From Pseudomonadota bacterium (GTDB taxonomy: Bacteria; Pseudomonadota; Gammaproteobacteria; JAKAQQ01), in the NCBI GenBank assembly GCA_021798795.1, contig JAJZBR010000002.1, positions 1-59,858 of the forward strand: a DNA stretch of 59,858 nucleotides. Direction: 5' to 3'. Below, in pieces: positions 9,928-48,034 of the stretch (position 1 is its first letter; each line of letters starts with the position of its first letter). The notes under the pieces are model-generated. The model had not been told where the DNA came from and searched no databases. It saw nothing but the letters and a program-made list of their open reading frames with translations. The translations under genes and the position numbers were made by a program.

Positions 9928-11115
9928 CTATAAAACGCCGACCCGGCGTCCGGCTCGTTCGAAGGCTTCGAGCGCCCGGTCGAGATCAGCGGCATTGTGG
10001 GCGGCAGAAACCTGGGTCCGGATCCGTGCCTGGTCCTTGGGAACGACCGGGAACGAGAACCCGATCGCATAGACTCCTTCCTCAAGGAGCGCTTGTGCCA
10101 TCTTCTGGGCCCGGTGCGCGTCACGAAGCAGGATCGGAATGATGGGGTGGGTTCCAGCCACGAGTTCGAATCCGAGCGCCGTGAGCCCGGCCCGGAAACG
10201 TGCTGCATTCGCGTGCAGGCGCACCCTGGGTGCCGGGTCGCTCTGGATGAGTTCGAGGGCGGCCATTGCTGCGGCCACGATCACCGGGGGAAGGCTGTTC
10301 GAGAACAGGTAGGGGCGCGAGCGCTGGCGCAGCCAGTCGATGACCGGAGCGGAGGATGCGGTATATCCGCCGCTCGCTCCGCCCAGGGCCTTGCCGAGGG
10401 TTCCGGTCAGGATATGAATCCGGTCCGGGACACCCTGTTTTTCCGGCGTCCCGCGTCCACCGGGTCCCATGAAACCGACCGCATGGGAGTCATCAACCAT
10501 GACGAGTGCGTCATAGCGTTCGGCCAGTTCCGAGATGCCGCGCAGGTCGGCTTCAACCCCATCCATCGAGAAAACTCCGTCCGTCACGATCATCCGGAAT
10601 CGAGCCTGGCGGGATTGCTTGAGTTCACCCTCCAGTGCGTCGAGATCGCGGTTGGGGTAACGCAGGCGACGGGCCTTGGACAGACGAATGCCATCGATCA
10701 GGCTGGCATGATTCAGGGCATCGCTGATCACCACGTCCTCTTCACCGAGCAGGGTCTCGAACAGTCCGCCATTGGCGTCGAAGCAGGAGGAGTAGAGAAT
10801 ACTCGCGGAGCAGCCCAGGAAATCGGCAAGCCGGCGCTCGAGATCGATATGGAGATCCTGGGTCCCGCAGATGAACCGAACCGAGGCCAGGCCATAACCA
10901 TAACGCGTGAGCGCCGCCTGGGCATGGGCAATCAGGGTGGGATGGTTTGCCAGCCCCAGATAATTATTGGCACAAAGATTGATCAGTTCGCGGCCGTCCG
11001 CGAGCCGGACCCGTGCGCCCTGGGGCGAAGCCAGGACCCTTTCGGATTTATGGAGTCCTTCGGCATCAAGGTCGGCGAGCGCCTGGTTCAGGTGAATTTC
11101 TAGGGCATGCGCCAC
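9928..11115 (-). CDS. kbl: 2-amino-3-ketobutyrate CoA ligase (glycine C-acetyltransferase)
   Basis: 395 aa. Alpha-oxoamine synthase motifs NNYLGL, DDSHAVG and [14 protein letters not shown] (PLP lysine). kbl-tdh order as in E. coli. Confidence 0.93.
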
Positions 11116-11205
11116 GGGGGATTCCCCAAAAATGGAATTCTACTACGAGCGCCGGGACGGATTGGCATGGCCAGACTATAATTCAGGAAACGGGACCCGG
11201 CTGGT

Positions 11206-12909
11206 TTGTCCTTGGATTCAACAAAACGCCACTTTCAGTCCCCATCCCACAGGTTATGGGGTGTCTGTGCCCTGTTCCTCCTCTTCTCCGTGACCTGGTT
11301 CGGGACCATCGGGCATCGTGCGCTCTTCCAGACCGATGAAGGACGTTACGCCGAGATCTCGCGCGAGATGGTGCAGTCCGGAAACTGGCTGACGCCCCGC
11401 CTCGACGGATTCAAATATTTTGAAAAACCGGCGCTTCAGTACTGGGCGACGGCGCTCAGCTTCACGCTTTTCGGTGAACACACCTGGTCTGCCAGGCTCT
11501 ATAGCGCCGTGACCGGTTTCCTCACGCTGCTTCTCATCGGCTGGGCCGGATACCGGTTATGGGGCGTGTGGTCGGGCTGGTTCGCCTTTTGTGTGGCGGC
11601 AAGCAGCCTCTATCTCGTCATCATGGCCCATTTCAACACCCTGGACATCGGGGTGACGTTCTGGATGACCCTCAATCTCGTGAGTTTTCTCCTGGCCCAA
11701 TCGGAACCGGATCGCATTGCGCGCCGGAGGGCCTATATGTACGTGAGTTGGGCGGCTTCTGCTCTTGCGGTCATGAGCAAGGGATTGATCGGTGTCGTCC
11801 TGCCCGGAGCCGTACTATTGCTCTACGTCCTGGCCGTGCGGGATGTCCGCATCCTCAAGCGGCTGCATTACTACGGGGGGGTGACGCTCTTCGTGCTGAT
11901 CGGGGTTCCCTGGTTTTTCTGGGTCACGGTTCACAATCCCGAGTTTTTCCACTATTTCTTTATCTACCAGCATTTTGACCGCTATCTCAGCGGCAGTGCA
12001 CACCGCCCGGGTCCCATCTGGTATTTTCTGCCGATCCTCCTGCTCGGTGTCCTGCCCTGGGTGCGCGAAGCCTCACGCGTCATCCGGGCAGGCTTCAGGA
12101 GACCTTTGCGGGAGGCCGATGGGCGGGTCGACGCCGCCTGGCTGCTCTGGCTTTATGCGGTCTTTATTTTCGTGTTCTTCTCGTTTTCGAGTTCCAAACT
12201 CCCGAGTTACATTCTTCCGATCATGCCTGCCGTGGCGCTCCTGATCGGTCGAGAGCTTGCGGCCATGGACGCGCATCGACTCCTCGCGGCGATCCTGATC
12301 GGGGGCGGGCTCGGCTCGGCCGGTCTTTTGGCCACGCCCTTTTGGATCTCCTCGATCCACTCGTCGTCTGCTTTGGACTATATGCGTTTCGAGCCGGGAC
12401 TCCTTGCCGTGTTTGCCTGCCTTTTGATTTTTTCTGCAGCTGGGTTCTGGTTGTGGCGGCGGGGCGGGTCGACGGGGGCGATCGTGACGGTTTTGGCATG
12501 CGGATGGTTCTTCGCAGTTTCGGGCCTCAACTGGAGCGCCCAGGCACTTGATCCGATCTATTCGACCCGTGCGTTCGCGAAGAGTCTCGGTCCCTGGAAT
12601 CAACCCTCCCGACCCTTCTACATCGTGGCCAACTACCAGCAGTCCCTCCCTTTCTACCTCAGGCGGACCGTGACCTTGGTCGACTGGCAGGGAGAGATCG
12701 GTTACGGCATCAATCTGGCCCGGGTGGCCGGCCACCTTGACGACAGCCGGTTCATACCCACCCTATCCCGCTTCCACCGCATCTGGCTGGCCGAGCCCAA
12801 AGCCGTCGCAATTCTCGAGAAGCCGCTTTACCGAAGACTCCGCAAGGCCGGCTGGCCCCTCCGGGTGGTGGCGTCCAACATCCGCCGGGTGGCGGTGGTG
12901 CATCCATGA
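11206..12909 (+). CDS. arnT: undecaprenyl phosphate-alpha-L-Ara4N transferase (GT83/PMT_2 family)
   Basis: 567 aa polytopic protein. The N-terminal FQTDEGRYAEISREMVQSGNWLTPRLDGFKYFEKPALQYW aligns with E. coli ArnT WQPDETRYAEISREM...YFEKP. The only in-frame start upstream of TM1 is TTG at 11206. Confidence 0.85.
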   Translation: MSLDSTKRHFQSPSHRLWGVCALFLLFSVTWFGTIGHRALFQTDEGRYAEISREMVQSGNWLTPRLDGFKYFEKPALQYWATALSFTLFGEHTWSARLYSAVTGFLTLLLIGWAGYRLWGVWSGWFAFCVAASSLYLVIMAHFNTLDIGVTFWMTLNLVSFLLAQSEPDRIARRRAYMYVSWAASALAVMSKGLIGVVLPGAVLLLYVLAVRDVRILKRLHYYGGVTLFVLIGVPWFFWVTVHNPEFFHYFFIYQHFDRYLSGSAHRPGPIWYFLPILLLGVLPWVREASRVIRAGFRRPLREADGRVDAAWLLWLYAVFIFVFFSFSSSKLPSYILPIMPAVALLIGRELAAMDAHRLLAAILIGGGLGSAGLLATPFWISSIHSSSALDYMRFEPGLLAVFACLLIFSAAGFWLWRRGGSTGAIVTVLACGWFFAVSGLNWSAQALDPIYSTRAFAKSLGPWNQPSRPFYIVANYQQSLPFYLRRTVTLVDWQGEIGYGINLARVAGHLDDSRFIPTLSRFHRIWLAEPKAVAILEKPLYRRLRKAGWPLRVVASNIRRVAVVHP

Positions 12910-38755: not shown

Positions 38756-40864
38756 TCATTCGTGGCAACCGCCACTGCACGTACCATCATTTTGTTCACC
38801 AGATGGTGGATGGTCGAGTTCCCTACGCAGCAGGGATTCCAGATGGGAGCAATACTCCGCAACGTAATCGATTTGATTGACTGAATCTCGGAGCCAGGGA
38901 TTCATCAGCGTGTGTCGCAGAACGAAAATCGAGTTCGTGTCCAGCACACCGGGTTGGTTCGGTCCGATCAAACCCAAAGCGTTGAGGATCCGACTGCGCT
39001 CGGTGGGCGCGAGTGAATCCGGATAAAGCAGCGTTGAGGAGCTGAAAAACTGTTGTGCCTGAAGCGGACGGGCCCGATCGACGCGGAGATGGGCGTACAC
39101 ACGGTATGCAAACGCGTTCATATGCCGGGCACTTGTGTTTCCCGCAGGATTAAAAGCGACGCAGAGCAGATTGGAATCGGGTTCAAAAGGAATGTGGACA
39201 TGGATCAGTCCCGCCAGACGTTCGGCCATGTTTTTCATGAGGTCATAGAGATGTTCGGTTGCCTGGATGCTCAGTTGGGGCAACTGGCCCAGATGGGCAT
39301 GATCCAACGGTAACGTTCGATGCGTCACATATACGGCCGCTGCTGCAGCACCGGGTTTGGATCCTTCGAGAATGAAGCGGCCGAGTTCCCGGAATCGTTC
39401 CCGGTAGGTTTGGTTGATGCGGTGTTCGGGATCCGTGAAGATGTACGGTACATCCTCCGCGACTGAATTCGTCATCCGGTGATCGCGGCAAACAAAAGCA
39501 CCACCCGAACCGTAGGGCAGGTAACCGAGCTTGTGGGGATCCACTGTCACCGAATCGACGGCCGAGAGAGCGGCGACCGCTTCATAAACCCGCGCTGATG
39601 GAAAGTAGTGGAACGCCTGCCGCACCTGCTCGCGTGGGCGCAGGTCACCGGATTCTTCACGAAATAGGCTGGCCAGATAGCCGCCCCACGCGGCGTCCAC
39701 ATGGACAGCAAAGCCAAGTCCCTTTTGGTTCCAGGCATTTCGCAAACGCACGATTTCGTGTATGGGATCCAATGTTCCGTATTCCGTGGTTCCCAGGATG
39801 CCGACCACGGCGAGAACCGGCACGTGCTGACTGGCACAGGTGGACAGGGTTTGCTCGAGCGCGTCCGTATCCATGCGCATACCATCCGTCGGCATCAGGC
39901 GGAGATGATTGTGCCCGAGCCCCAGGAGCTTACAGGCTTTTCTCCAGGAGTAATGGGCTGTTTGCGCGATCAGGATCACAGGAGGCTTGAGTGCTCCCCG
40001 GGCGTGATGAAAATCAATACATCCGAGTGTCTCGATCCGGTTGGACTCAAGTGCTTCGAGAAATGCGCGCAGCTTTGCAGTGTCCCCCTGCATTTGATCG
40101 CGACACGTTTCCGCAAGGGCGATCGCGCTGTCAACCGAAAGGTTGAACAGCTCCCAATCGTCATAGGATTGCAGCAGACGCCCGTTGAATGTCACTTCGA
40201 GATGGCACACATTGACCGCGGTCTGAATCGCCAATGGCAGGTATTTCAAGGCACGCAGAATCCAGAGCGCTTCGTAGTTTGCAACAGTTCCTCCTGATGT
40301 CAGGTGGCCAAATGCGCAGTTCGGTGCCGCCTCATCGTGGGGAAAACCCAGCATGCGCGCCAGTTGCAGGCCGACGTCGATTTCGAGATCGATCGTGCCA
40401 GCTGATGCATCGCTTGAAACGTTGTTCGGGTTATAGGGGATCGTGATCATCTGGGCGAGCAGCCCGGGCAGCAATGGGTCAGAGACCATGTGCCCCATAT
40501 AGCGTGGACTGGATAGGGGCGTCGATCGCTTGAGACGTGCGGTCAGCATCTGTAGTTCATGGCGCAGTCGAGACACAAAATCGACATAGGCCGCATCCTG
40601 CTGTGCAAACGGCGGGATGGGAGGTGGGTCGTCGGGGTGGAAGTTGCGGCGCCAATAAATATGATCGCGTAGCAGCTCGACCAGAAGACGTTCGAAGAGA
40701 TCGTTGTTCTCGGCATAGGCACCCAAGAAACATGCGTTCAGAAATGAAGCATCTGGTTTCATAGCGGGTTCCATTGGTTTGACAGGCATGGGATCAGGCG
40801 GTGCCGCCGCTTCGGAAGGGCTTCGAAATGGACCGCGAACGGGGCCATTTCTTTCATCGCGCAT
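38756..40864 (-). CDS. large group II PLP-dependent decarboxylase-like enzyme (tyrosine/aromatic amino acid decarboxylase-like fold)
   Basis: Motifs HIYWRRNFHPDD, HLTSGGTVANYEALW, HVDAAWGG and VDPHKLGY (PLP lysine). The chosen start ATG 40864 lies 1 nt after the chorismate mutase stop (TGAGATG). Alternative starts are 40789, 40774 and 40762. The tail is Cys-rich (GTCSGGCHE). Confidence 0.8.
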   Translation of the reverse strand: MRDERNGPVRGPFRSPSEAAAPPDPMPVKPMEPAMKPDASFLNACFLGAYAENNDLFERLLVELLRDHIYWRRNFHPDDPPPIPPFAQQDAAYVDFVSRLRHELQMLTARLKRSTPLSSPRYMGHMVSDPLLPGLLAQMITIPYNPNNVSSDASAGTIDLEIDVGLQLARMLGFPHDEAAPNCAFGHLTSGGTVANYEALWILRALKYLPLAIQTAVNVCHLEVTFNGRLLQSYDDWELFNLSVDSAIALAETCRDQMQGDTAKLRAFLEALESNRIETLGCIDFHHARGALKPPVILIAQTAHYSWRKACKLLGLGHNHLRLMPTDGMRMDTDALEQTLSTCASQHVPVLAVVGILGTTEYGTLDPIHEIVRLRNAWNQKGLGFAVHVDAAWGGYLASLFREESGDLRPREQVRQAFHYFPSARVYEAVAALSAVDSVTVDPHKLGYLPYGSGGAFVCRDHRMTNSVAEDVPYIFTDPEHRINQTYRERFRELGRFILEGSKPGAAAAAVYVTHRTLPLDHAHLGQLPQLSIQATEHLYDLMKNMAERLAGLIHVHIPFEPDSNLLCVAFNPAGNTSARHMNAFAYRVYAHLRVDRARPLQAQQFFSSSTLLYPDSLAPTERSRILNALGLIGPNQPGVLDTNSIFVLRHTLMNPWLRDSVNQIDYVAEYCSHLESLLRRELDHPPSGEQNDGTCSGGCHE

Positions 40865-40865
40865 C

Positions 40866-41222
40866 TCAACCGGGCTCAGCATCTTCGATTCCTGGATGCA
40901 TGTCCGCCAGGTGTTCAACCTGCCCGGTGTCTACACTGCCCGCCATCTGCAGGGAGTTTTGGAGTACGGCTGAAACGATCCTGCTCGTGGCTGCAGGATT
41001 GAGACGGTAGCGTTCGGCCGAGGCTCTACAACGGGCAAAGATCTCGAGCTCACGTTCCGGACTGCGTGCGGGCAGGCCGATGAGTTTCTTGATGTCCTGT
41101 GCCTGCTCAACCAGCTCACTTCTGAGTTTCAATAATAAAACCAGTCGGTCGTCTAACCGGTCAATCCGGCGCCGTATTGCATTGAGACGGTCTCGTTGTG
41201 CGGGTTGCGAGGATGGGGTCAT
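40866..41222 (-). CDS. monofunctional chorismate mutase (AroQ class)
   Basis: 118 aa. LNAIRRRIDRLDDRLVLLLKLRSELVEQAQDIKK...PERELEI matches the AroQ helix 1/2 pattern (R..ID.lD..ll.Ll..R....... K). No signal peptide. Confidence 0.85.
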   Translation of the reverse strand: MTPSSQPAQRDRLNAIRRRIDRLDDRLVLLLKLRSELVEQAQDIKKLIGLPARSPERELEIFARCRASAERYRLNPAATSRIVSAVLQNSLQMAGSVDTGQVEHLADMHPGIEDAEPG

Positions 41223-41386
41223 CTGCGTACGCCGGATCGCTATGGGACAGTGGACGTCAGGGCGAAGGTTCGGGATGGGCCATGTCCGGTCGCGCCGGGC
41301 AATCCCGTTTGACGAGTGATTGTGGACCTGTGCTGATCTTTTGCATATGACCTAGATCAAGGCGTGACCGTCGTACGCCGGATAGC

Positions 41387-41896
41387 ATGAAAGATATGGT
41401 TCTGCGCGCGTTTCTGAAACGCTTGGGTGATGGCGTGCCCATGCTCCCGGCAAGAGTCCTGAACTGGGGAAGCCGGATGCCCGCTCCGCTCAGAAATGCA
41501 CTCGTGGAACAGATTTTCAACTATGCGCTGAGAAAACCATTGGCGGCTGGCACCTTCGACTTCCTGTCGGATCAAGCTGTTTCGGTCGTTGCGTCGGATG
41601 CTGATTATGGAATATCGCTGACCTGTCACAAACGCCTTTTGCGCTTGCTGCCGAGTGGGTGTGCGGATACCACGATCACAGCATCGACACTTGATCTCCT
41701 TCGGATGGCAGCTGGCCAGGTTGATGCAGATAGTCTGTTCTTTCGCCAGCAGCTTACGATCCGCGGGAATGTGGCGCTCGGTCTCGAAACCAAAAATGCA
41801 CTCGATGGAATCGACCGTGATGACTTGCCGTTTCCGGTCTGGTCCGTACTGAGAGGAGCCGAGACGCTGTTCAGACGCATGGAGCAGACGAGGTGA
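41387..41896 (+). CDS. ubiT: SCP2-domain ubiquinone biosynthesis accessory factor UbiT (YhbT)
   Basis: 169 aa. Aligns with E. coli UbiT, including the ...DADSLFFRQQLTIRGNVALGLETKNALD block (E. coli DPDTLFFQRRLVIEGDTELGLYVKNLMD). Confidence 0.88.
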   Translation: MKDMVLRAFLKRLGDGVPMLPARVLNWGSRMPAPLRNALVEQIFNYALRKPLAAGTFDFLSDQAVSVVASDADYGISLTCHKRLLRLLPSGCADTTITASTLDLLRMAAGQVDADSLFFRQQLTIRGNVALGLETKNALDGIDRDDLPFPVWSVLRGAETLFRRMEQTR

Positions 41897-42761
41897 TGAT
41901 GCCCGCCTGCTCCAGCCAATAACCGTCGCATTCCGGGGCGCCGATCAGATCAGCTACCTCTGGTATATTTCCCCTGTCCAATGCCACACGGGCCCGGTGT
42001 AGCAACGCGGGAGTGTTACTGGCATCCGGGCTGATTCTGAGAATGCCGACTCCAGCGTGGGCAGCCTCGCGCCAGTAGGGCAGAAGGTTTACAATCCGCG
42101 CGGATTGAGTTTGAAGCCCATTCAGGGTCAGAAAGGGCTGCCCTTCCTGGGTTTCAACCGCCATTCCGGAGGGATAGCGTCCGCAGATGAAATGGCAATG
42201 ATCCCGGGTGTAGCCATGTGCCCGTGCGGTAAAACAGCGGGCCGAGTAGGCAAGTGGCATCCGGCCCAGTGTAAAAAGCTCGGTTTCCAAGTGATCCGAA
42301 CCTAGCATCCGGATCATGGTGGCCAGTGCGGCACCCGATATCTCGAGAGGCGGAATCCAGCGGAAGAGCCCCAGATCCCGTAGTTGTGCCAGCGTCCGTT
42401 CATTGTAAACATTCAGTGAAGCGCCTGCGACAAACGGAAGACCGTTTTCCATGAGCATGTGAACAGCCGCTGCATCATTGGCTTCCACCAGAAACTCTCC
42501 ATTGCTGCAGACCCGCTCGATCTGCGAGAGTTCAGATTCTGCTTCGACAACGGTCAAGGTGGACAGGACAATCTCTTTGCCGCGATCCTTCAGCATGCGT
42601 CCGATCTCAAGCCACTGCATCCAGCCCAGACTGCGCCGTTTTGAGCATACGGTCTCGCCGAGATAGACAATGTCAACAGGTGCTTCAGCGATATCATTAT
42701 AGAAGGCAAGAAGCTGATCGTTGTTCCAGTGATAACCAACCGGGCCAAGCGCAAGACGCAT
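41871..42761 (-). CDS. ubiV: U32-family O2-independent ubiquinone hydroxylase subunit UbiV (YhbV)
   Basis: MRLALGPVGYHWN...VYLGETVCSKRR...LPLAYSARCFTAR aligns with E. coli UbiV (MKYSLGPVLWYWP...IYLGEAVCSKRR...LPLAYSARCFTAR). The start could be 42782. Confidence 0.9.
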   Translation of the reverse strand: MRLALGPVGYHWNNDQLLAFYNDIAEAPVDIVYLGETVCSKRRSLGWMQWLEIGRMLKDRGKEIVLSTLTVVEAESELSQIERVCSNGEFLVEANDAAAVHMLMENGLPFVAGASLNVYNERTLAQLRDLGLFRWIPPLEISGAALATMIRMLGSDHLETELFTLGRMPLAYSARCFTARAHGYTRDHCHFICGRYPSGMAVETQEGQPFLTLNGLQTQSARIVNLLPYWREAAHAGVGILRISPDASNTPALLHRARVALDRGNIPEVADLIGAPECDGYWLEQAGIITSSAPCV

Positions 42762-43794: not shown

Positions 43795-43836
43795 ATTGTA
43801 AAAGCCGAAGTTGGGAGGATGCTTGATACGGATCAA
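43795..43836 (-). promoter_or_regulatory. class II FNR/CRP-family dependent promoter for ubiU-ubiV
   Basis: A perfect palindrome TTGAT-ACGG-ATCAA lies at 43823..43836. On the minus strand a TACAAT -10 hexamer (43800..43795) sits 32 bp from the box centre. This is the spacing expected for a -41.5 site, and predicts a TSS about 20 nt upstream of the ubiU ATG (43768). Confidence 0.7.
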
Positions 43837-43916: not shown

Positions 43917-44573
43917 CTATCCTGAAAATCCCCACCGGGGTGTGAGATCGTGTTCAACGTCCAGATGGTCGAGGGTGCGAGCGACGACGAAATCGACGAG
44001 GCGGTCAACTGACAGGGGGGGATGATAAAAGCCCGGGCAGGCCGGAAGCATCACGACTCCGGATTGCGACAAATGGAGCATGTGTGTGAGGTGAATACAG
44101 CTCAAAGGGGTTTCTCTGGGTACCAGAACGAGCTTGCGGCGCTCTTTGATCATGACATCAGCGGCCCGTTCGAGCAAGGTATGGCTCGCACCGGTCGCGA
44201 TGGCTGCAAGCATGCCCATGCTGCATGGACAGATGGCCATTGCATCTACGCGGGCCGATCCACTGGCCATCGGCGCCGTCCACTGCCGTTCACCGAAAAC
44301 ACGCAGATGCCCGCGTGCATCGGTGATCGGGGCGAAGTGTGTGTTCAGTATTCGTTCGATTGCAAGCGGTTCATCGGGCAGGGTCAGTTCCGTTTCCATT
44401 GCCATGACCGTTCGTGCCGAATCGGTCACGACCACGTGAACTTCACGGTTGGCGATGAGTAATCGTTCAATGAGTCTCAGGCCGTAAATGGTTCCTGATG
44501 CGCCACTCAGTCCTACCACAACGGGTGACCGATCACCTGATCGTACATGCGATTCCAGGCGTCTGGTACTCAC
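43917..44573 (-). CDS. ubiX: flavin prenyltransferase UbiX
   Basis: The GTG start overlaps the ubiD stop (GTGA). VVVGLSGASGTIYGLRLIE, PCSMG and typical UbiX length (218 aa). The longer ORF to 44648 lies inside ubiD. Confidence 0.9.
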   Translation of the reverse strand: MSTRRLESHVRSGDRSPVVVGLSGASGTIYGLRLIERLLIANREVHVVVTDSARTVMAMETELTLPDEPLAIERILNTHFAPITDARGHLRVFGERQWTAPMASGSARVDAMAICPCSMGMLAAIATGASHTLLERAADVMIKERRKLVLVPRETPLSCIHLTHMLHLSQSGVVMLPACPGFYHPPLSVDRLVDFVVARTLDHLDVEHDLTPRWGFSG

Positions 44574-46036
44574 CCGAGTTCGAGATCTGACCAGAGACGA
44601 TCGATGCGTGCGACGATCTCGGGGTCTTTGATGATCGGACGTCCCCATGTGCGGCTCGTTTCGCCCGGACCCTTGTTCGTGGCATCCACTCCGAGCTTGG
44701 ATCCGAGCCCGGTAGTTGCCGATGTGAAATCCAGATTGTCGACGGGAGTCGCATCCATGCAGAAAATGTCACGCTTCGGGTCCACGCGGGTACTTAATAC
44801 CCAGAGAACATCCTTCCAGTTGCGAACGTCGATATCGTCGTCCGTGATGATCACGTACTTGGTATAAAGAAACTGGCGCAGAAAGCTCCAGATGCCAAAC
44901 ATGACCCGCCTGGCCTGGCCTGGATACTCCTTACGGATGCTCACACAGGCCATCCGGTAGCTGCAGGCTTCGGGAGGAAGATAGAAGTCGATGATTTCCG
45001 GAAACTGACGTTTGAGGATCGGGATAAAAAGCTCGTTCAGAGCGGCCGCTAGGACGGATGGCTCATCCGGAGGGCGCCCGGTATGGGTGGCGTGAAAGAT
45101 GGGGTCATCGCGATGGGTGAGCCGGGTAACGGTCATGACCGGATAGGGGGCCACCTCGTCATAGTAGCCGGTATGGTCACCGAACGGACCTTCGACAGCC
45201 GTATCATCCGGGTGGATGAAGCCTTCGAGGACAATCTCGGCCTGCGCCGGAACACTGAGATCGTGGGACAGACAGGGGGCAATCTCCGTACGGGATCCTC
45301 TCAGCAGGCCAGCGAAAGCATACTCCGAGAAATGGTCGGGAATCGGCATCGCTGCGGCGATCAGCATCGCGGGATCTGCACCAATTGCTACGGCGACCGG
45401 GAAGGGTTTGTCCGGATGGGCCCCGCGCCATGCCCTGAAATCCAGTGCGCCCCCGCGGTGGGGCAGCCAACGCATGATCAGGCGGTTGTGGTCGATGACC
45501 TGCTGGCGGTAGACCCCAACGTTGAGTCGCTCGCGAACTGGTCCCCGCGTTACTGTCAAACCCCAGGTGATCAAGGGTCCAGCATCGCCTGGCCAACTGG
45601 TGACCAGTGGCAGGCGGCTTAAATCCACGTCGTTTCCTGTTAGTTGATGCGTTTGACAAGCCGGACGATGGATCCGGCGCAGAGGCATTTTGAGCGCACC
45701 CCGCATCAGTTCCAGGTGGCCGAGTATATCCGCCAGACCCTGAGGTGGTTCCGGCTCGCGATAGAGGGCCAGTCGCTCGCCGAACTCGCGCAGATCCCCG
45801 ATTGTGCGGCGTCCGAGTGCCCTTGCCACCCGGTCGGGTGTCCCGAGGAGATTCGTCAGGACCGGCAGGGTCTGCCCCACGGGCCGTGTAAAGAGCAAGG
45901 CAGGCCCTCCTCGCTTCAAGACCCGGTCAGAGATCTCAGTAATTTCGAACTGAGGATCGATGGGGACGTCGATCTTTTTTAGTTCCCCGCACTGATTGAG
46001 CTCATCAACAAAGGATCGCAAGCTGTTCAGGGACAT
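44570..46036 (-). CDS. ubiD: 4-hydroxy-3-polyprenylbenzoate decarboxylase UbiD
   Basis: 488 aa. N-terminal LRSFVDELNQCGELKKIDVPIDP.FEITEI.DRVLK.GGPALLF and the prFMN-binding core typical of UbiD. Confidence 0.92.
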   Translation of the reverse strand: MSLNSLRSFVDELNQCGELKKIDVPIDPQFEITEISDRVLKRGGPALLFTRPVGQTLPVLTNLLGTPDRVARALGRRTIGDLREFGERLALYREPEPPQGLADILGHLELMRGALKMPLRRIHRPACQTHQLTGNDVDLSRLPLVTSWPGDAGPLITWGLTVTRGPVRERLNVGVYRQQVIDHNRLIMRWLPHRGGALDFRAWRGAHPDKPFPVAVAIGADPAMLIAAAMPIPDHFSEYAFAGLLRGSRTEIAPCLSHDLSVPAQAEIVLEGFIHPDDTAVEGPFGDHTGYYDEVAPYPVMTVTRLTHRDDPIFHATHTGRPPDEPSVLAAALNELFIPILKRQFPEIIDFYLPPEACSYRMACVSIRKEYPGQARRVMFGIWSFLRQFLYTKYVIITDDDIDVRNWKDVLWVLSTRVDPKRDIFCMDATPVDNLDFTSATTGLGSKLGVDATNKGPGETSRTWGRPIIKDPEIVARIDRLWSDLELG

Positions 46037-46047
46037 CTGGACGAGCT

Positions 46048-47970
46048 TCAGCTTGCGATGCGTGTTGCAACGGCGAAACGGGAGGAGTCAATGCCAGGCA
46101 TCAGGGGTTTGTCCCACTCGATGCTGATGCGATCACCGGCGTGTCTCAGCCGATCCATCCACTGTCCAATATGTACGTGATGACTAATCGGCGCATCCTT
46201 GAACTCAAGGACCAGTGTGAGAGTCCGAAATCTCCGCAGCAGACGGTTCATCAGGTTCAGGGCAGACTTCAGGTCTGCGGACTGGCAGGATCTTCCAACG
46301 ACCATGCGAAGCCGCACCGGTCTGGATAGACGCTCAAATTGAATCCTGAAGATTCCATTAGCGGTCGGTTCCTGGAGCTTGCGGAGAAGTTGGACGACGT
46401 GTCTTTCGATCGACAGTCGTTCGCGGAATGTTGGGTGGCAGACGTAACGCCTGGCATATTCCCGGATGGAGAAGCCAGCGGCCCAATCTTGGCAGGCATC
46501 TGGCCAGAGCGATGGGCGCACATGACCGAGGCTCCATACGAATCGCGCGCCGCAGACCACTCCGCTCCTCAGGATTCCACGGATAGCCAGCCGCCAGAGG
46601 GTGCGCCCGGCATGACGCTCGTTCGCGTGATGCCGGAATGAATGATGGTTTTTGCGATAAAAACGGAACTTGTTGCGGATACGCATGGCCATCGCACGAT
46701 AACTCGTCAGACGTTCATAGAGGGCCGCGTAGCCGACGGTGAGTTCATCATAGGTCATGCCGAGGGGCACAATGTTTGTCTGCCCGCCGGTATTGTCCCC
46801 GGGTTGCACATGGGCCCGCAGTCGATTCTCCCGTCTCAGCCGTTCGTAAAGCGGTGTCCGTGGTACGGCCGTGAGAAGACCCAGCATGGCAACCTGGATG
46901 CCCGATGCTTCAATAAAATGGTACTGGCGCTCAAACGTTTTGACCGAATCATGATCAAAGCCCACGATGAAACCGCTGAACACGTCGATTCCGTTCTGGT
47001 AAAAGGCGCGGACGGCATCCAGCAGGCTACCCCTCAGGTTCTGTTTTTTCCCTGTCTCGGCCAGGCTTTCCGTTTCGGGTGTTTCGATGCCGAGGAAGAC
47101 CCAATGAAATCCGGCAGCGCGGACCCTGGAGAGAAGCTCACGGTCGGTTGCGAGATTGACCGATACCTCGGTACCAAACGAGAACGGGTAATTGTGGCAT
47201 CGCTGGTATTCTGTTAGAAACTCGAGCAAGGCCAGGGCACGTGGCCGATGTCCAATCAGGTTATCGTCAACGAAGAACACGTTGTGGACGCCATATCGGC
47301 GCAGGAGGTCGAGTTCGTCATGAATCTGTTCAAGGGTTTTGGTCCGTGGTTTCCGGCCAAAAAGAACGGGAATGTCGCAGAACTCACATTGATAAGGACA
47401 TCCCCGTGAGAACTGCAGGCTGGCTGTCGTGTAGGAAGAAAACTTGATCAGGTCGTAACGCGGCGTCGGCGAATGCCGGAGATCGACCGGGACTGCCTGG
47501 TGATAGCGTCTGGCTGCTATACCCTGTTCGAAATCGCGGCAGAACGCTGGCCAGATCAGTTCGGCCTCACCAATTATCAAGGTATCCACAAGCCCCTCAT
47601 AGGATGAGGGCGACAAGGAGACATAGCTCCCGCCAGCCACGACATGGTAGCCTTTCTCGCGATAGTACCCGAGGAGTTCCCTTTGGCGTGGAAACTGGAC
47701 AGCCATCCCGCCGATGCCGACAATATCCGCATCCGGATCCAGCGGCAGGGGCTCAATGTTTTCGTCACAGATTGCGATGTCCCAGTGGGCTGGAGTCAGC
47801 GCGGCAAGGGTCGCGAGTCCGAGGGGTGGGTTGATCGCCCGTTTGTCCGAGAGCACTTCGCGGAGCGCCCAGCGGAAGCTCCAGAAGCTTTCCGGAGAAC
47901 GGGGATTGACCAGAACCAGGCGTATCGGTCGTTTGGGAAGAAGTTTGGGATCGATCGGGTGCACGAACAT
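46048..47970 (-). CDS. B12-binding-domain radical SAM protein with DUF4070-like C-terminal region (function unknown)
   Basis: 640 aa. N-terminal cobalamin-binding-like segment (DIVGIGGMAVQFPRQRELLGYYREKGYHVVAGG) and radical SAM motif FSRGCPYQCEFCD (CX3CX2C). About 230 aa of C-terminal extension. The stop lies 11 nt before the ubiD start. Confidence 0.85.
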   Translation of the reverse strand: MFVHPIDPKLLPKRPIRLVLVNPRSPESFWSFRWALREVLSDKRAINPPLGLATLAALTPAHWDIAICDENIEPLPLDPDADIVGIGGMAVQFPRQRELLGYYREKGYHVVAGGSYVSLSPSSYEGLVDTLIIGEAELIWPAFCRDFEQGIAARRYHQAVPVDLRHSPTPRYDLIKFSSYTTASLQFSRGCPYQCEFCDIPVLFGRKPRTKTLEQIHDELDLLRRYGVHNVFFVDDNLIGHRPRALALLEFLTEYQRCHNYPFSFGTEVSVNLATDRELLSRVRAAGFHWVFLGIETPETESLAETGKKQNLRGSLLDAVRAFYQNGIDVFSGFIVGFDHDSVKTFERQYHFIEASGIQVAMLGLLTAVPRTPLYERLRRENRLRAHVQPGDNTGGQTNIVPLGMTYDELTVGYAALYERLTSYRAMAMRIRNKFRFYRKNHHSFRHHANERHAGRTLWRLAIRGILRSGVVCGARFVWSLGHVRPSLWPDACQDWAAGFSIREYARRYVCHPTFRERLSIERHVVQLLRKLQEPTANGIFRIQFERLSRPVRLRMVVGRSCQSADLKSALNLMNRLLRRFRTLTLVLEFKDAPISHHVHIGQWMDRLRHAGDRISIEWDKPLMPGIDSSRFAVATRIAS

Positions 47971-47992
47971 CTATCGGACATATCTTGCGCTT

Positions 47993-48034
47993 ATTGTGAG
48001 AGATCACACGCATCCACTGCTTGACACAAATCAA
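47993..48034 (-). promoter_or_regulatory. FNR-like box and -10 element upstream of the radical SAM-ubiD-ubiX unit
   Basis: TTGAC-ACAA-ATCAA at 48021..48034 matches 9/10 of the consensus. CACAAT on the minus strand (47998..47993) is again 32 bp from the box centre, which is 57.5 bp upstream of the ATG at 47970. Confidence 0.5.

What the first reader, a model, noticed from the sequence alone, without database searches (positions are those of the whole stretch)
46048..47970. Unassigned B12-binding radical SAM enzyme is the first gene of the ubiD-ubiX operon: candidate new component of anaerobic quinone biosynthesis
The 640-aa protein has a cobalamin-binding-like N-domain, the CX3CX2C radical SAM motif (CPYQCEFC), a DUF4070-like region and about 100 extra C-terminal residues. 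Its stop is 11 nt from the ubiD ATG, ubiD and ubiX overlap (GTGA), and ubiU-ubiV follow on the same strand. No known step of UbiD/UbiX decarboxylation or of the UbiT/U/V pathway needs a class B radical SAM enzyme, yet this one shares operon and FNR-type promoter geometry with them. Plausible roles are oxygen-independent C-methylation or other modification of the quinone ring or prenyl tail (giving a modified quinone), or maturation of a cofactor for UbiD/UbiU/UbiV. All of these are speculative.
Basis: inference. Interest (0 to 1): 0.8.

Follow-up and report, generated by a model that had tools for sequence, protein, structure and literature searches.

The report
Anaerobic radical SAM gene upstream of ubiD
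An uncharacterised cobalamin-type radical SAM enzyme sits under an oxygen-sensing (FNR-type) promoter as the first gene of a ubiD-ubiX operon, and may be an unreported helper of oxygen-free ubiquinone synthesis, though its reaction is unknown.

Summary
Window 46048-47970 (minus strand) encodes a 640-aa protein with CPYQCEFC, Radical_SAM, DUF4070, a sub-threshold B12-binding N-domain and a family-specific C-terminal domain of about 130 aa. It matches no curated class B family. Its stop lies 11 nt before ubiD. ubiD/ubiX overlap, and ubiU-ubiV, ubiT and a chorismate mutase follow.

The window's only two exact FNR-type boxes lie upstream of this gene and of ubiU.

In the gene's own subfamily (at least 53% identity), 10 of 11 informative loci keep rSAM->ubiD with a -4 to +11 nt junction, while the surrounding genes are rearranged. 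All 12 loci carry the FNR box.

In the wider family, ubiU/ubiV is the most recurrent neighbour and ubiD the only recurrent immediate one, in at least five gene orders.

About 85-90% of orthologues are not ubi-linked, and many lie in phyla not known to make ubiquinone. No searched paper mentions the link.

Verdict: a low-oxygen-regulon enzyme tied to the O2-independent ubiquinone module in several proteobacterial lineages.

Best specific guess (about 0.3): SAM-driven, O2-free activation of UbiD by oxidising prFMNH2. This is unproven.

The parts
48021..48034 (.). FNR/ANR-type box TTGACACAAATCAA (minus strand TTGATTTGTGTCAA), centred 57.5 nt upstream of the rSAM ATG
   Evidence: One of only two sites matching TTGAYN4ATCAA in the window (0.19 matches expected). 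A box at the equivalent place is present in all 12 subfamily loci.
47993..47998 (-). Candidate -10 hexamer CACAAT, at -12..-7 if the FNR box is centred at -41.5 (class II geometry); the implied transcription start is near 47986
   Evidence: Read from the sequence. This is inference, and the generic sigma-70 scan did not call it.
46048..47970 (-). 640-aa class B-type radical SAM protein: B12-binding-like domain (about 17-160), radical SAM core (186-352, C191/C195/C198), DUF4070 (372-508), family-specific alpha/beta C-terminal domain (about 505-640)
44570..46036 (-). ubiD (488 aa), starting 11 nt after the rSAM stop
   Evidence: Pfam UbiD_N/UbiD/UbiD_C. NCBIfam NF008175 scores 736.5 bits aligned 1-486.
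43917..44573 (-). ubiX flavin prenyltransferase (218 aa, GTG start), overlapping the ubiD stop by 4 nt
43823..43836 (.). Second FNR-type box, the perfect palindrome TTGATACGGATCAA, centred 61.5 nt upstream of the ubiU ATG
   Evidence: An equivalent box lies upstream of ubiU in relatives. It agrees with published FNR sites upstream of ubiU (PMC11707229).
42773..43768 (-). ubiU (331 aa)
   Evidence: NF047963 scores 512.5 bits against a cut-off of 440.
41871..42761 (-). ubiV (296 aa)
   Evidence: NF047965 scores 344 bits against a cut-off of 275. Gene call.
41387..41896 (+). ubiT (SCP2 domain), convergent with ubiV
   Evidence: NF047962 scores 100.1 bits against a cut-off of 46.9.
40866..41222 (-). 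CM_2 chorismate mutase, which makes prephenate, the published O donor for UbiU/V
   Evidence: PMC10990095. CM_2 is present beside ubiUVT in all subfamily loci that extend far enough.

Best explanation
The gene encodes a functional class B-type radical SAM enzyme. It is switched on by an FNR/ANR-type regulator when oxygen is scarce and is co-translated with UbiD and UbiX. In this lineage it serves the O2-independent ubiquinone pathway. The most likely specific role is an oxygen-free activator of UbiD. UbiX makes reduced prenylated FMN (prFMNH2), and UbiD needs it oxidised to the iminium form. In vitro that step uses O2, and its physiological oxidant in anoxia is unknown. The proposal is as follows. 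The [4Fe-4S] cluster cleaves SAM. The 5'-deoxyadenosyl radical abstracts a hydrogen from the prenyl-derived ring of prFMNH2. Loss of one further electron then gives prFMN-iminium, so SAM replaces O2 as the oxidant. Shown here: domain architecture, family conservation, the 11-nt junction with ubiD, the FNR boxes, and recurrent linkage to ubiD and ubiUVT. Inferred: co-transcription, anaerobic induction, and any role in ubiquinone synthesis (about 0.55-0.6 overall). Speculative: the prFMN substrate and chemistry (about 0.3).
For: (1) In the gene's own subfamily, 10 of 11 informative loci have rSAM->ubiD with a junction of -4 to +11 nt. Meanwhile the flanks (M13 peptidase versus nadAB) and the order of ubiU/V/T/CM_2 differ (exception). 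(2) In another gammaproteobacterial clade ubiD is again the direct neighbour, but in other orientations: ubiD->rSAM in L012 and L022, convergent in L010. ubiD is the only immediate-neighbour family recurring in 3 or more of the 80 species-representative loci. (3) FNR-type boxes lie upstream of the gene in 12 of 12 subfamily loci. Across the first survey, 21 loci carry one, against about 1.1 expected. An accessory needed only without O2 should be regulated this way and should cluster with ubiUVT even where ubiD lies elsewhere, as in L035, L038, L044 and L052. (4) prFMN oxidative maturation is the one step of the 'O2-independent' route still known to use O2. [quoted passage not shown] Dedicated UbiD-activation helpers encoded beside ubiD/ubiX have precedent in PhdC and LpdD. 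(5) UbiD/UbiX-family enzymes are described as near-ubiquitous in microbes (PMC10865409 abstract). That fits the family's presence outside ubiquinone producers better than a ubiquinone-intermediate substrate does. (6) A 2026 preprint reports that the alternative decarboxylase needs O2, so anaerobic ubiquinone synthesis depends on UbiD/X.
Against: There is no biochemical or genetic evidence. E. coli makes ubiquinone anaerobically with UbiD/X, and I know of no such enzyme in it (established knowledge, not tested here), so it cannot be generally required. About 85-90% of orthologues are stand-alone. No UbiD-family gene was found within 10 kb in the 17 non-proteobacterial loci. In Betaproteobacteria the gene sits in ubiU-ubiV-ubiT operons without ubiD (L035, L044). 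Apart from the three cluster cysteines only one cysteine (C144) is invariant, so there is no obvious auxiliary Fe-S cluster of the kind radical SAM dehydrogenases use. The class B architecture and DUF4070, which is shared with hopanoid methylase HpnP, suggest methylation of a lipid rather than oxidation of a flavin.
Confidence: 0.3

Rival explanations
1. It is a general low-oxygen-regulon enzyme whose substrate has nothing to do with ubiquinone. It could be an O2-independent substitute for an oxygenase, as BchE is for AcsF, or a methylase of a lipid, tetrapyrrole or macromolecule common to many phyla. On this view it sits near ubi genes only because FNR-controlled genes cluster in 'anaerobic islands'.
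For: Most orthologues are not ubi-linked. A large nested clade lies in phyla not known to make ubiquinone and has no conserved neighbour. Neighbours at unlinked proteobacterial loci are a low-O2 assortment: NirS, NirE/CysG-type methylases, NrdD, NarI, cbb3-type cytochrome, CtaA, hemerythrin and PAS sensors. FNR boxes are also present at ubi-unlinked loci.
Against: Island co-location does not explain overlapping or near-overlapping stop/start junctions with ubiD kept across rearrangements. Nor does it explain tight operons such as rSAM-ubiU-ubiV-(LplA/DUF116)-ubiT in L035 (gaps 13-59 nt) or ubiT->rSAM in L044 (33 nt). ubiU/V and ubiD outrank every other neighbour family.
Confidence: 0.3
2. It is a helper of the U32-family, prephenate-dependent hydroxylases (UbiU/UbiV and relatives). 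For example it could make or repair a cofactor, or carry out one hydroxylation or oxidation step by BchE-like chemistry.
For: All 15 ubi-linked loci of the genome and metagenome surveys and the first look-ups contain ubiU/V, but only 11 of them contain ubiD. In Betaproteobacteria the gene lies inside expanded ubiUV-T operons that also carry an LplA-DUF116 fusion. From my own knowledge, U32 proteins are widespread, which would fit the broad distribution of the family.
Against: Published work indicates that UbiU/V/T suffice in E. coli (knowledge; PMC6747719 and PMC10470549, listed). Where ubiD is in the cluster, the gene is next to ubiD, not ubiU/V, in 5 of 6 architectures. No U32 gene is adjacent in the non-proteobacterial loci.
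Confidence: 0.15
3. The enzyme is a cobalamin-dependent C-methylase, or other modifier, of a prenylated ubiquinone intermediate, the quinone ring or the tail, and it produces a modified quinone under anoxia.
For: Methylation is the commonest class B chemistry. DUF4070 also occurs in the lipid methylase HpnP. CysS, a structural neighbour, alkylates a methoxy group on an aminobenzoate ring. The gene is adjacent to ubiD (the preceding step) and to ubiT (a lipid carrier).
Against: From established chemistry, the ubiquinone ring has no free carbon. Full-length orthologues at 45-50% identity occur in phyla not known to make ubiquinone. No such quinone turned up in the papers searched.
Confidence: 0.12

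Closest known systems
Structurally characterised class B (B12-binding-domain) radical SAM enzymes: AprD4, OxsB, TsrM, TokK, CysS, MgmA
   Same: The architecture is the same: an N-terminal Rossmann-like B12-binding-type domain followed by a CX3CX2C radical SAM barrel. These are the best Foldseek hits (E 2.6e-20 to 1e-13) and the best PDB sequence hits.
   Different: Identity is only 13-22%. No curated family cut-off is approached. The protein has a DUF4070 helical region and a roughly 130-aa C-terminal domain found only in this family. Whether it binds cobalamin (TokK, CysS) or not (AprD4) is unknown.
BchE, anaerobic Mg-protoporphyrin IX monomethyl ester cyclase
   Same: It is a class B radical SAM enzyme that replaces an O2-dependent enzyme under anoxia. 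This is the best functional analogy for an FNR-controlled class B enzyme.
   Different: TIGR02026 scores 56 bits against a cut-off of 481. The gene is not in a photosynthesis cluster. The substrate is unknown.
HpnP, HpnR and HpnJ hopanoid radical SAM enzymes
   Same: They are class B enzymes. HpnP shares DUF4070 and acts on a membrane lipid.
   Different: HpnR scores 53.7 against 650 and HpnJ 51.4 against 577.6. No hopanoid genes were seen nearby.
UbiD activation helpers PhdC (prFMN maturase) and LpdD (prFMNH2 chaperone)
   Same: They are accessory proteins encoded next to ubiD/ubiX-family genes that help produce active prFMN-UbiD. This is the role proposed here.
   Different: They are not homologous: Pfam finds only radical SAM-type domains here. 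PhdC needs O2 or ferricyanide as oxidant. The proposal here is SAM-dependent and oxygen-free, and it is untested.
UbiT/UbiU/UbiV O2-independent ubiquinone pathway
   Same: They share a locus and the same FNR-type control. The chorismate mutase alongside fits the prephenate O donor.
   Different: The published pathway papers read here do not mention a radical SAM enzyme. The pathway works without one in E. coli (knowledge). The rSAM family extends beyond Pseudomonadota.

Membership tests
Radical SAM superfamily | CX3CX2C motif that binds the SAM-cleaving [4Fe-4S] cluster | tested here: met
   C191-x3-C195-x2-C198 (CPYQCEFC) in the translation. The three cysteines are invariant in 28 homologues.
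Radical SAM superfamily | Pfam PF04055 above the gathering score | tested here: met
   68.9 bits against 29.5, residues 186-352.
Class B radical SAM enzymes | N-terminal Rossmann-like B12-binding-type domain fused to the radical SAM core | tested here: met
   PF02310 scores 27.9 bits (cut-off 32.1), E 2.3e-6, on residues 47-139. Most homologues have a PF02310 hit on record. The model has pLDDT 85.9, and its top PDB neighbours are all class B enzymes.
Class B radical SAM enzymes | Binds cobalamin and uses it in catalysis | not testable with these tools
   The best structural match, AprD4, has the domain but, from my knowledge, no cobalamin. Sequence alone cannot decide.
Named class B families (PhpK, HpnR, HpnJ, BchE, MCR glutamine methylase, AprD4, KedN5, BzaD, ladderane rSAM and others) | NCBIfam whole-protein score above the curated cut-off | tested here: not met
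   The best score is 79.7 against 600 (PhpK). BchE scores 56.2 against 481, HpnR 53.7 against 650, and HpnJ 51.4 against 577.6.
O2-independent ubiquinone pathway (as an added component) | Conserved genomic linkage to ubiD/X or ubiU/V/T across rearranged loci | tested here: met
   10 of 11 subfamily loci are linked. There are 8-9 of 80 species-representative loci and 1 metagenome locus, in at least 5 gene orders. About 0.4 of 80 would be expected by chance (my estimate).
O2-independent ubiquinone pathway (as an added component) | Shares FNR-type control with ubiUVT | tested here: met
   (sequence motifs only). FNR sites at ubiU/ubiT are published.
O2-independent ubiquinone pathway (as an added component) | Confined to ubiquinone-producing taxa and present wherever the pathway is | tested here: not met
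   Full-length orthologues occur in Gemmatimonadota, Latescibacterota, Dadabacteria, Thermoanaerobaculia and others. Most loci are unlinked. Absence from E. coli and P. aeruginosa is from knowledge and was not tested.
O2-independent ubiquinone pathway (as an added component) | Required for anaerobic ubiquinone synthesis | not testable with these tools
   This needs a knockout and quinone LC-MS.
prFMN maturases / UbiD chaperones (PhdC, LpdD) | Homology to those proteins | tested here: not met
   Pfam finds only radical SAM-type domains. The similarity proposed is of role, not of family.

The most novel reading that the evidence does not exclude
This family is a radical SAM, O2-independent maturase for prenylated FMN. 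It would use SAM instead of O2 to oxidise UbiX-made prFMNH2 to the active iminium cofactor of UbiD. That would answer how UbiD-family (de)carboxylases are activated in anoxic cells, and it would add a fourth anaerobic-specific factor to UbiT/U/V.
Probability: 0.3. Interest if true: 0.85.

Novelty: new variant of a known kind. Interest (0 to 1): 0.6.

Why it matters
The O2-independent ubiquinone pathway (UbiT/U/V with prephenate as O donor) was defined between 2019 and 2024 in E. coli and P. aeruginosa. This locus shows that environmental Proteobacteria repeatedly attach a further, FNR-controlled radical SAM enzyme to that module, most tightly to ubiD. None of the papers found and read mentions this.

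If the enzyme serves UbiD, it would address an open question stated in the 2025 literature: what oxidises prFMNH2 in the absence of O2. That matters for anaerobic aromatic degradation and for biocatalytic use of UbiD carboxylases.

If it acts elsewhere, it is still a large, well-conserved family that is FNR-associated in Proteobacteria. It has a private C-terminal domain and no assigned reaction.

Tried and rejected
- **Orthology to characterised class B enzymes.** Hopanoid HpnP/R/J, BchE, PhpK, MCR methylases, AprD4, BzaD and the ladderane enzyme were rejected on NCBIfam cut-offs.
- **Plasmid collection (tblastn).** It returned only paralogues below 45% identity that lack the C-terminal domain, in Rhizobium, Komagataeibacter and others. 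This was uninformative.
- **Fusions.** Longer homologues (P0041 at 805 aa, P0056 at 709 aa) only have low-complexity N-terminal extensions, probably mis-called starts.
- **C-terminal domain.**
  - It has no Pfam hit at E up to 10 in 10 homologues.
  - It has no PDB neighbour at E <= 0.001. The best matches are APOBEC-like folds at E 1e-2, and anti-sigma antagonist/STAS chains reach TM about 0.42-0.47. My STAS idea from the IDSS motif is therefore not supported.
  - An HMM search of 1.84 billion representatives found 236 hits at E <= 0.001. All matches listed end at the protein's C-terminus. The one checked is an N-terminally truncated piece of the same family, so no new architecture emerged.
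- **Neighbour census of non-proteobacterial loci.** No theme emerged.
- **Metagenome scan.** Only 1 of about 45 orthologue loci is ubi-linked, though most contigs are short.
- **Literature.** No paper links a radical SAM enzyme to UbiD/X or UbiUVT.
- **Recent insertion.** GC content is uniform at 0.56-0.61 across the cluster.
- **Heme d1 link.** nirS/nirE neighbours occur only in some Burkholderiales loci and are seldom adjacent. I did not pursue this.
Full report
**Observation**

The ORF at 46048..47970 lies on the minus strand and encodes 640 aa from an ATG. It contains SRGCPYQCEFCDIP, with C191, C195 and C198.

Domain evidence:
- Pfam gives Radical_SAM (residues 186-352, 68.9 bits) and DUF4070 (residues 372-508, 47.1 bits), both well above their cut-offs.
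- The B12-binding model is sub-threshold in this sequence. It scores 27.9 bits against 32.1, E 2.3e-6, when residues 1-180 are scanned alone.
- Most homologues have a PF02310 hit on record.
- An AlphaFold2 model built on 28 homologues has pLDDT 85.9 and pTM 0.88. It superposes best on the class B radical SAM enzymes AprD4, OxsB, MgmA, CysS, TsrM and TokK (sequence level).
- No curated NCBIfam family is approached. The best is PhpK at 79.7 bits against 600, with BchE at 56 against 481 and HpnR at 54 against 650.

The last 130 residues or so form an alpha/beta domain.
- It has no Pfam match in ten homologues.
- It has no significant PDB neighbour.
- In 1.84 billion representative proteins it appears only at the C-terminus of this family or its fragments.

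**Locus**

Downstream on the same strand:
- ubiD, 488 aa, starts 11 nt after the stop. The long start is backed by end-to-end alignment to the E. coli UbiD model and by gene calls in relatives.
- ubiX overlaps ubiD by 4 nt.
- After a 148-nt gap come ubiU and ubiV, both above NCBIfam equivalog cut-offs.

ubiT is convergent on the plus strand. A CM_2 chorismate mutase and a PLP-dependent decarboxylase follow.

Prephenate, the product of chorismate mutase, is the published oxygen donor for UbiU/V (PMC10990095). The whole block therefore reads as an O2-independent ubiquinone module. GC content is even across it.

**Regulation**

The FNR/ANR consensus TTGAYN4ATCAA occurs at only two places in 59.9 kb (3 strand-wise matches, 0.19 expected by chance).
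- One is 48021-48034, centred 57.5 nt upstream of the radical SAM ATG.
- The other is 43823-43836, centred 61.5 nt upstream of the ubiU ATG.

With the first box at -41.5, a CACAAT hexamer falls at -12..-7, which is class II geometry (inference).

The second box agrees with the published finding that 87% of ubiTUV loci carry FNR sites upstream of ubiU or ubiT (PMC11707229).

The 11-nt junction leaves no room for a promoter or terminator, and none was found.

I therefore read this as two FNR-type transcription units, rSAM-ubiD-ubiX and ubiU-ubiV, rather than one operon.

**Family and context**

The protein belongs to a large family. More than 7,700 of the 8,000 candidates scored reach E <= 1e-10, and full-length relatives share 45-72% identity. 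Mean column identity across 28 diverse members is 60%.

*The gene's own subfamily (at least 53% identity).* I could inspect 12 loci.
- Ten have rSAM->ubiD with a junction of -4 to +11 nt, usually followed by ubiX.
- ubiU, ubiV, ubiT and CM_2 lie within about 7 kb.
- The flanks differ (M13 peptidase versus nadA-nadB), and so do the order and orientation of U/V/T/CM_2.
- One locus is unlinked and one is cut by the contig end.
- All twelve have an FNR-type box upstream of the gene, and nine show a second one upstream of ubiU.

*80 species-representative genome loci.*
- ubiU and ubiV are the most recurrent real neighbour families (9 loci, counting the window's own locus L002).
- ubiD is the only immediate neighbour recurring in three or more loci.
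- The arrangements differ: U-V-T-D-rSAM; rSAM facing D; rSAM-T, then V-U-D on the other strand; U-V-T-rSAM; and rSAM-U-V-(LplA/DUF116)-T.
- Linked members are scattered over at least five proteobacterial subclades of a neighbour-joining tree.
- By my estimate, a 20-kb span in a genome of about 4 Mb would hold a given single-copy locus about 0.5% of the time. That gives about 0.4 of 80 by chance.

*FNR boxes across the survey.* Boxes lie within 300 nt upstream of the gene in 21 loci, against about 1.1 expected from the density elsewhere in the same loci. Many of these loci are ubi-unlinked.

**Limits on the ubiquinone reading**

- Most orthologues are not next to ubi genes. This holds for about 70 of the 80 genome loci and for all but one of about 45 orthologous metagenome loci, though many of those contigs are short.
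- A clade nested among the proteobacterial sequences lies in Gemmatimonadota, Latescibacterota, Dadabacteria, Thermoanaerobaculia and others. Its members are full-length and 45-50% identical. It shows no FNR box and no conserved neighbour.
- Unlinked proteobacterial loci sit among low-oxygen genes: nirS, nirE/cysG-type methylases, nrdD, narI, cbb3-type cytochrome, ctaA, hemerythrin and PAS sensors.
- The published pathway was worked out in E. coli and P. aeruginosa, and the pathway papers read here never mention a radical SAM enzyme.
- The enzyme is therefore not a core component of the pathway. A ubiquinone-specific substrate is also hard to reconcile with its distribution.

**Mechanism**

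The safe statement is this: it is an FNR-induced class B-type radical SAM enzyme that several proteobacterial lineages have wired into the O2-independent ubiquinone module. I put a real functional tie for the window's subfamily at about 0.55-0.6.

Within that, I favour activation of UbiD, at about 0.3 absolute. The reasons:
- The tightest and most repeated pairing is with ubiD.
- An accessory needed only without O2 should be FNR-controlled. It should also travel with ubiUVT when the housekeeping ubiD lies elsewhere.
- prFMNH2 oxidation is the one step of the route still tied to O2. Its anaerobic oxidant is explicitly unknown (PMC13040415).
- UbiD helpers encoded beside ubiD/ubiX have precedent (PhdC, LpdD).
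- UbiD/UbiX enzymes are near-ubiquitous, which fits the family's wide distribution.
- A 2026 preprint reports that UbiD/X is the only decarboxylation route in anoxia in E. coli and that ubiD/X co-occurs with ubiUVT.

From my own knowledge, radical SAM enzymes can carry out two-electron oxidations with SAM as the oxidant.

Against this idea:
- E. coli manages without such an enzyme.
- Betaproteobacterial operons pair the gene with ubiUVT but not ubiD.
- No UbiD gene is adjacent in non-proteobacterial loci.
- There is no sign of an auxiliary cluster, since C144 is the only other invariant cysteine.
- The DUF4070/class B make-up looks more like a lipid methylase such as HpnP.

Rivals and my estimates:
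- An unrelated low-O2 enzyme: 0.3.
- A helper of U32 hydroxylases: 0.15.

**Novelty**

No paper in the searchable library links a radical SAM enzyme to UbiD/X, prFMN maturation or UbiUVT. I class this as a new variant of a known kind. The scaffold is a recognisable class B one, but it has a private C-terminal domain, no assigned reaction, and an unreported, regulated association with anaerobic ubiquinone genes.

Noticed in passing
window 40866-41222 (-): A small CM_2 chorismate mutase sits beside ubiT/ubiUV. It is present next to ubiUVT in every subfamily locus that extends far enough (L084, L085, L088, L090, L091, L173-L175). This is independent genomic support for prephenate as the UbiU/V oxygen donor.
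   Followed up: partly
window 38756-40882 (-): A 708-aa PLP-dependent decarboxylase resembles tyrosine decarboxylase (TIGR03811, 347 bits against a cut-off of 905). It overlaps the end of the chorismate mutase gene and is conserved only in the closest relatives (L084, L085). Its role is unknown.
   Followed up: no
L035:13880-15601; L052:5130-7067; L009:2776-4491: A fusion of a lipoate-protein-ligase-like catalytic domain with DUF116 lies between ubiV and ubiT in two betaproteobacterial operons. In a third locus it lies directly beside the radical SAM gene. This is a second unreported passenger of ubiUVT loci.
   Followed up: partly
L044:6458-7477 (also L038:200-1174, L052:2590-3564); L044:3444-5513: A TIGR01212 MnmL/YtqA tRNA-modification radical SAM gene lies immediately upstream of ubiU in three Betaproteobacteria. 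In L044 an anaerobic ribonucleotide reductase gene (nrdD) precedes it, forming an 'anaerobic island'.
   Followed up: partly
L088, L090, L091, L173-L176 (upstream of the rSAM gene): nadA-nadB are transcribed divergently from the radical SAM gene and share the intergenic region that holds the FNR box. A Crp/FNR-family regulator gene lies about 5 kb upstream in several of these loci (L090, L091, L174, L176), and a further FNR-type box lies just downstream of it. In this clade the box centre is only 41.5 nt from the annotated ATG, so either the transcript is leaderless or the start is mis-called.
   Followed up: no
window 41871-41896 and 41347-41360: ubiT and ubiV converge, and their 3' ends overlap by 26 nt. 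A degenerate FNR-like site (ATGACCTAGATCAA, 2 mismatches) begins 40 nt upstream of the ubiT ATG.
   Followed up: partly
window 44570-46036 (-): The gene calls on record for this contig start ubiD 46 codons too late (442 aa). That creates a false 150-nt gap after the radical SAM gene. The 488-aa start aligns end to end with the E. coli UbiD model.
   Followed up: yes
L019:8134-9705 and 10001-11842: Two paralogous copies of the radical SAM gene lie in tandem in one betaproteobacterial MAG.
   Followed up: no
L068-L083; plasmid hits H2-H28: A sister family of about 520 aa shares about 40% identity and lacks the C-terminal domain. It occurs in Mycobacterium, Planctomycetes, Rhizobium megaplasmids and Komagataeibacter plasmids, with its own conserved neighbours in Mycobacterium. 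It is also uncharacterised.
   Followed up: no
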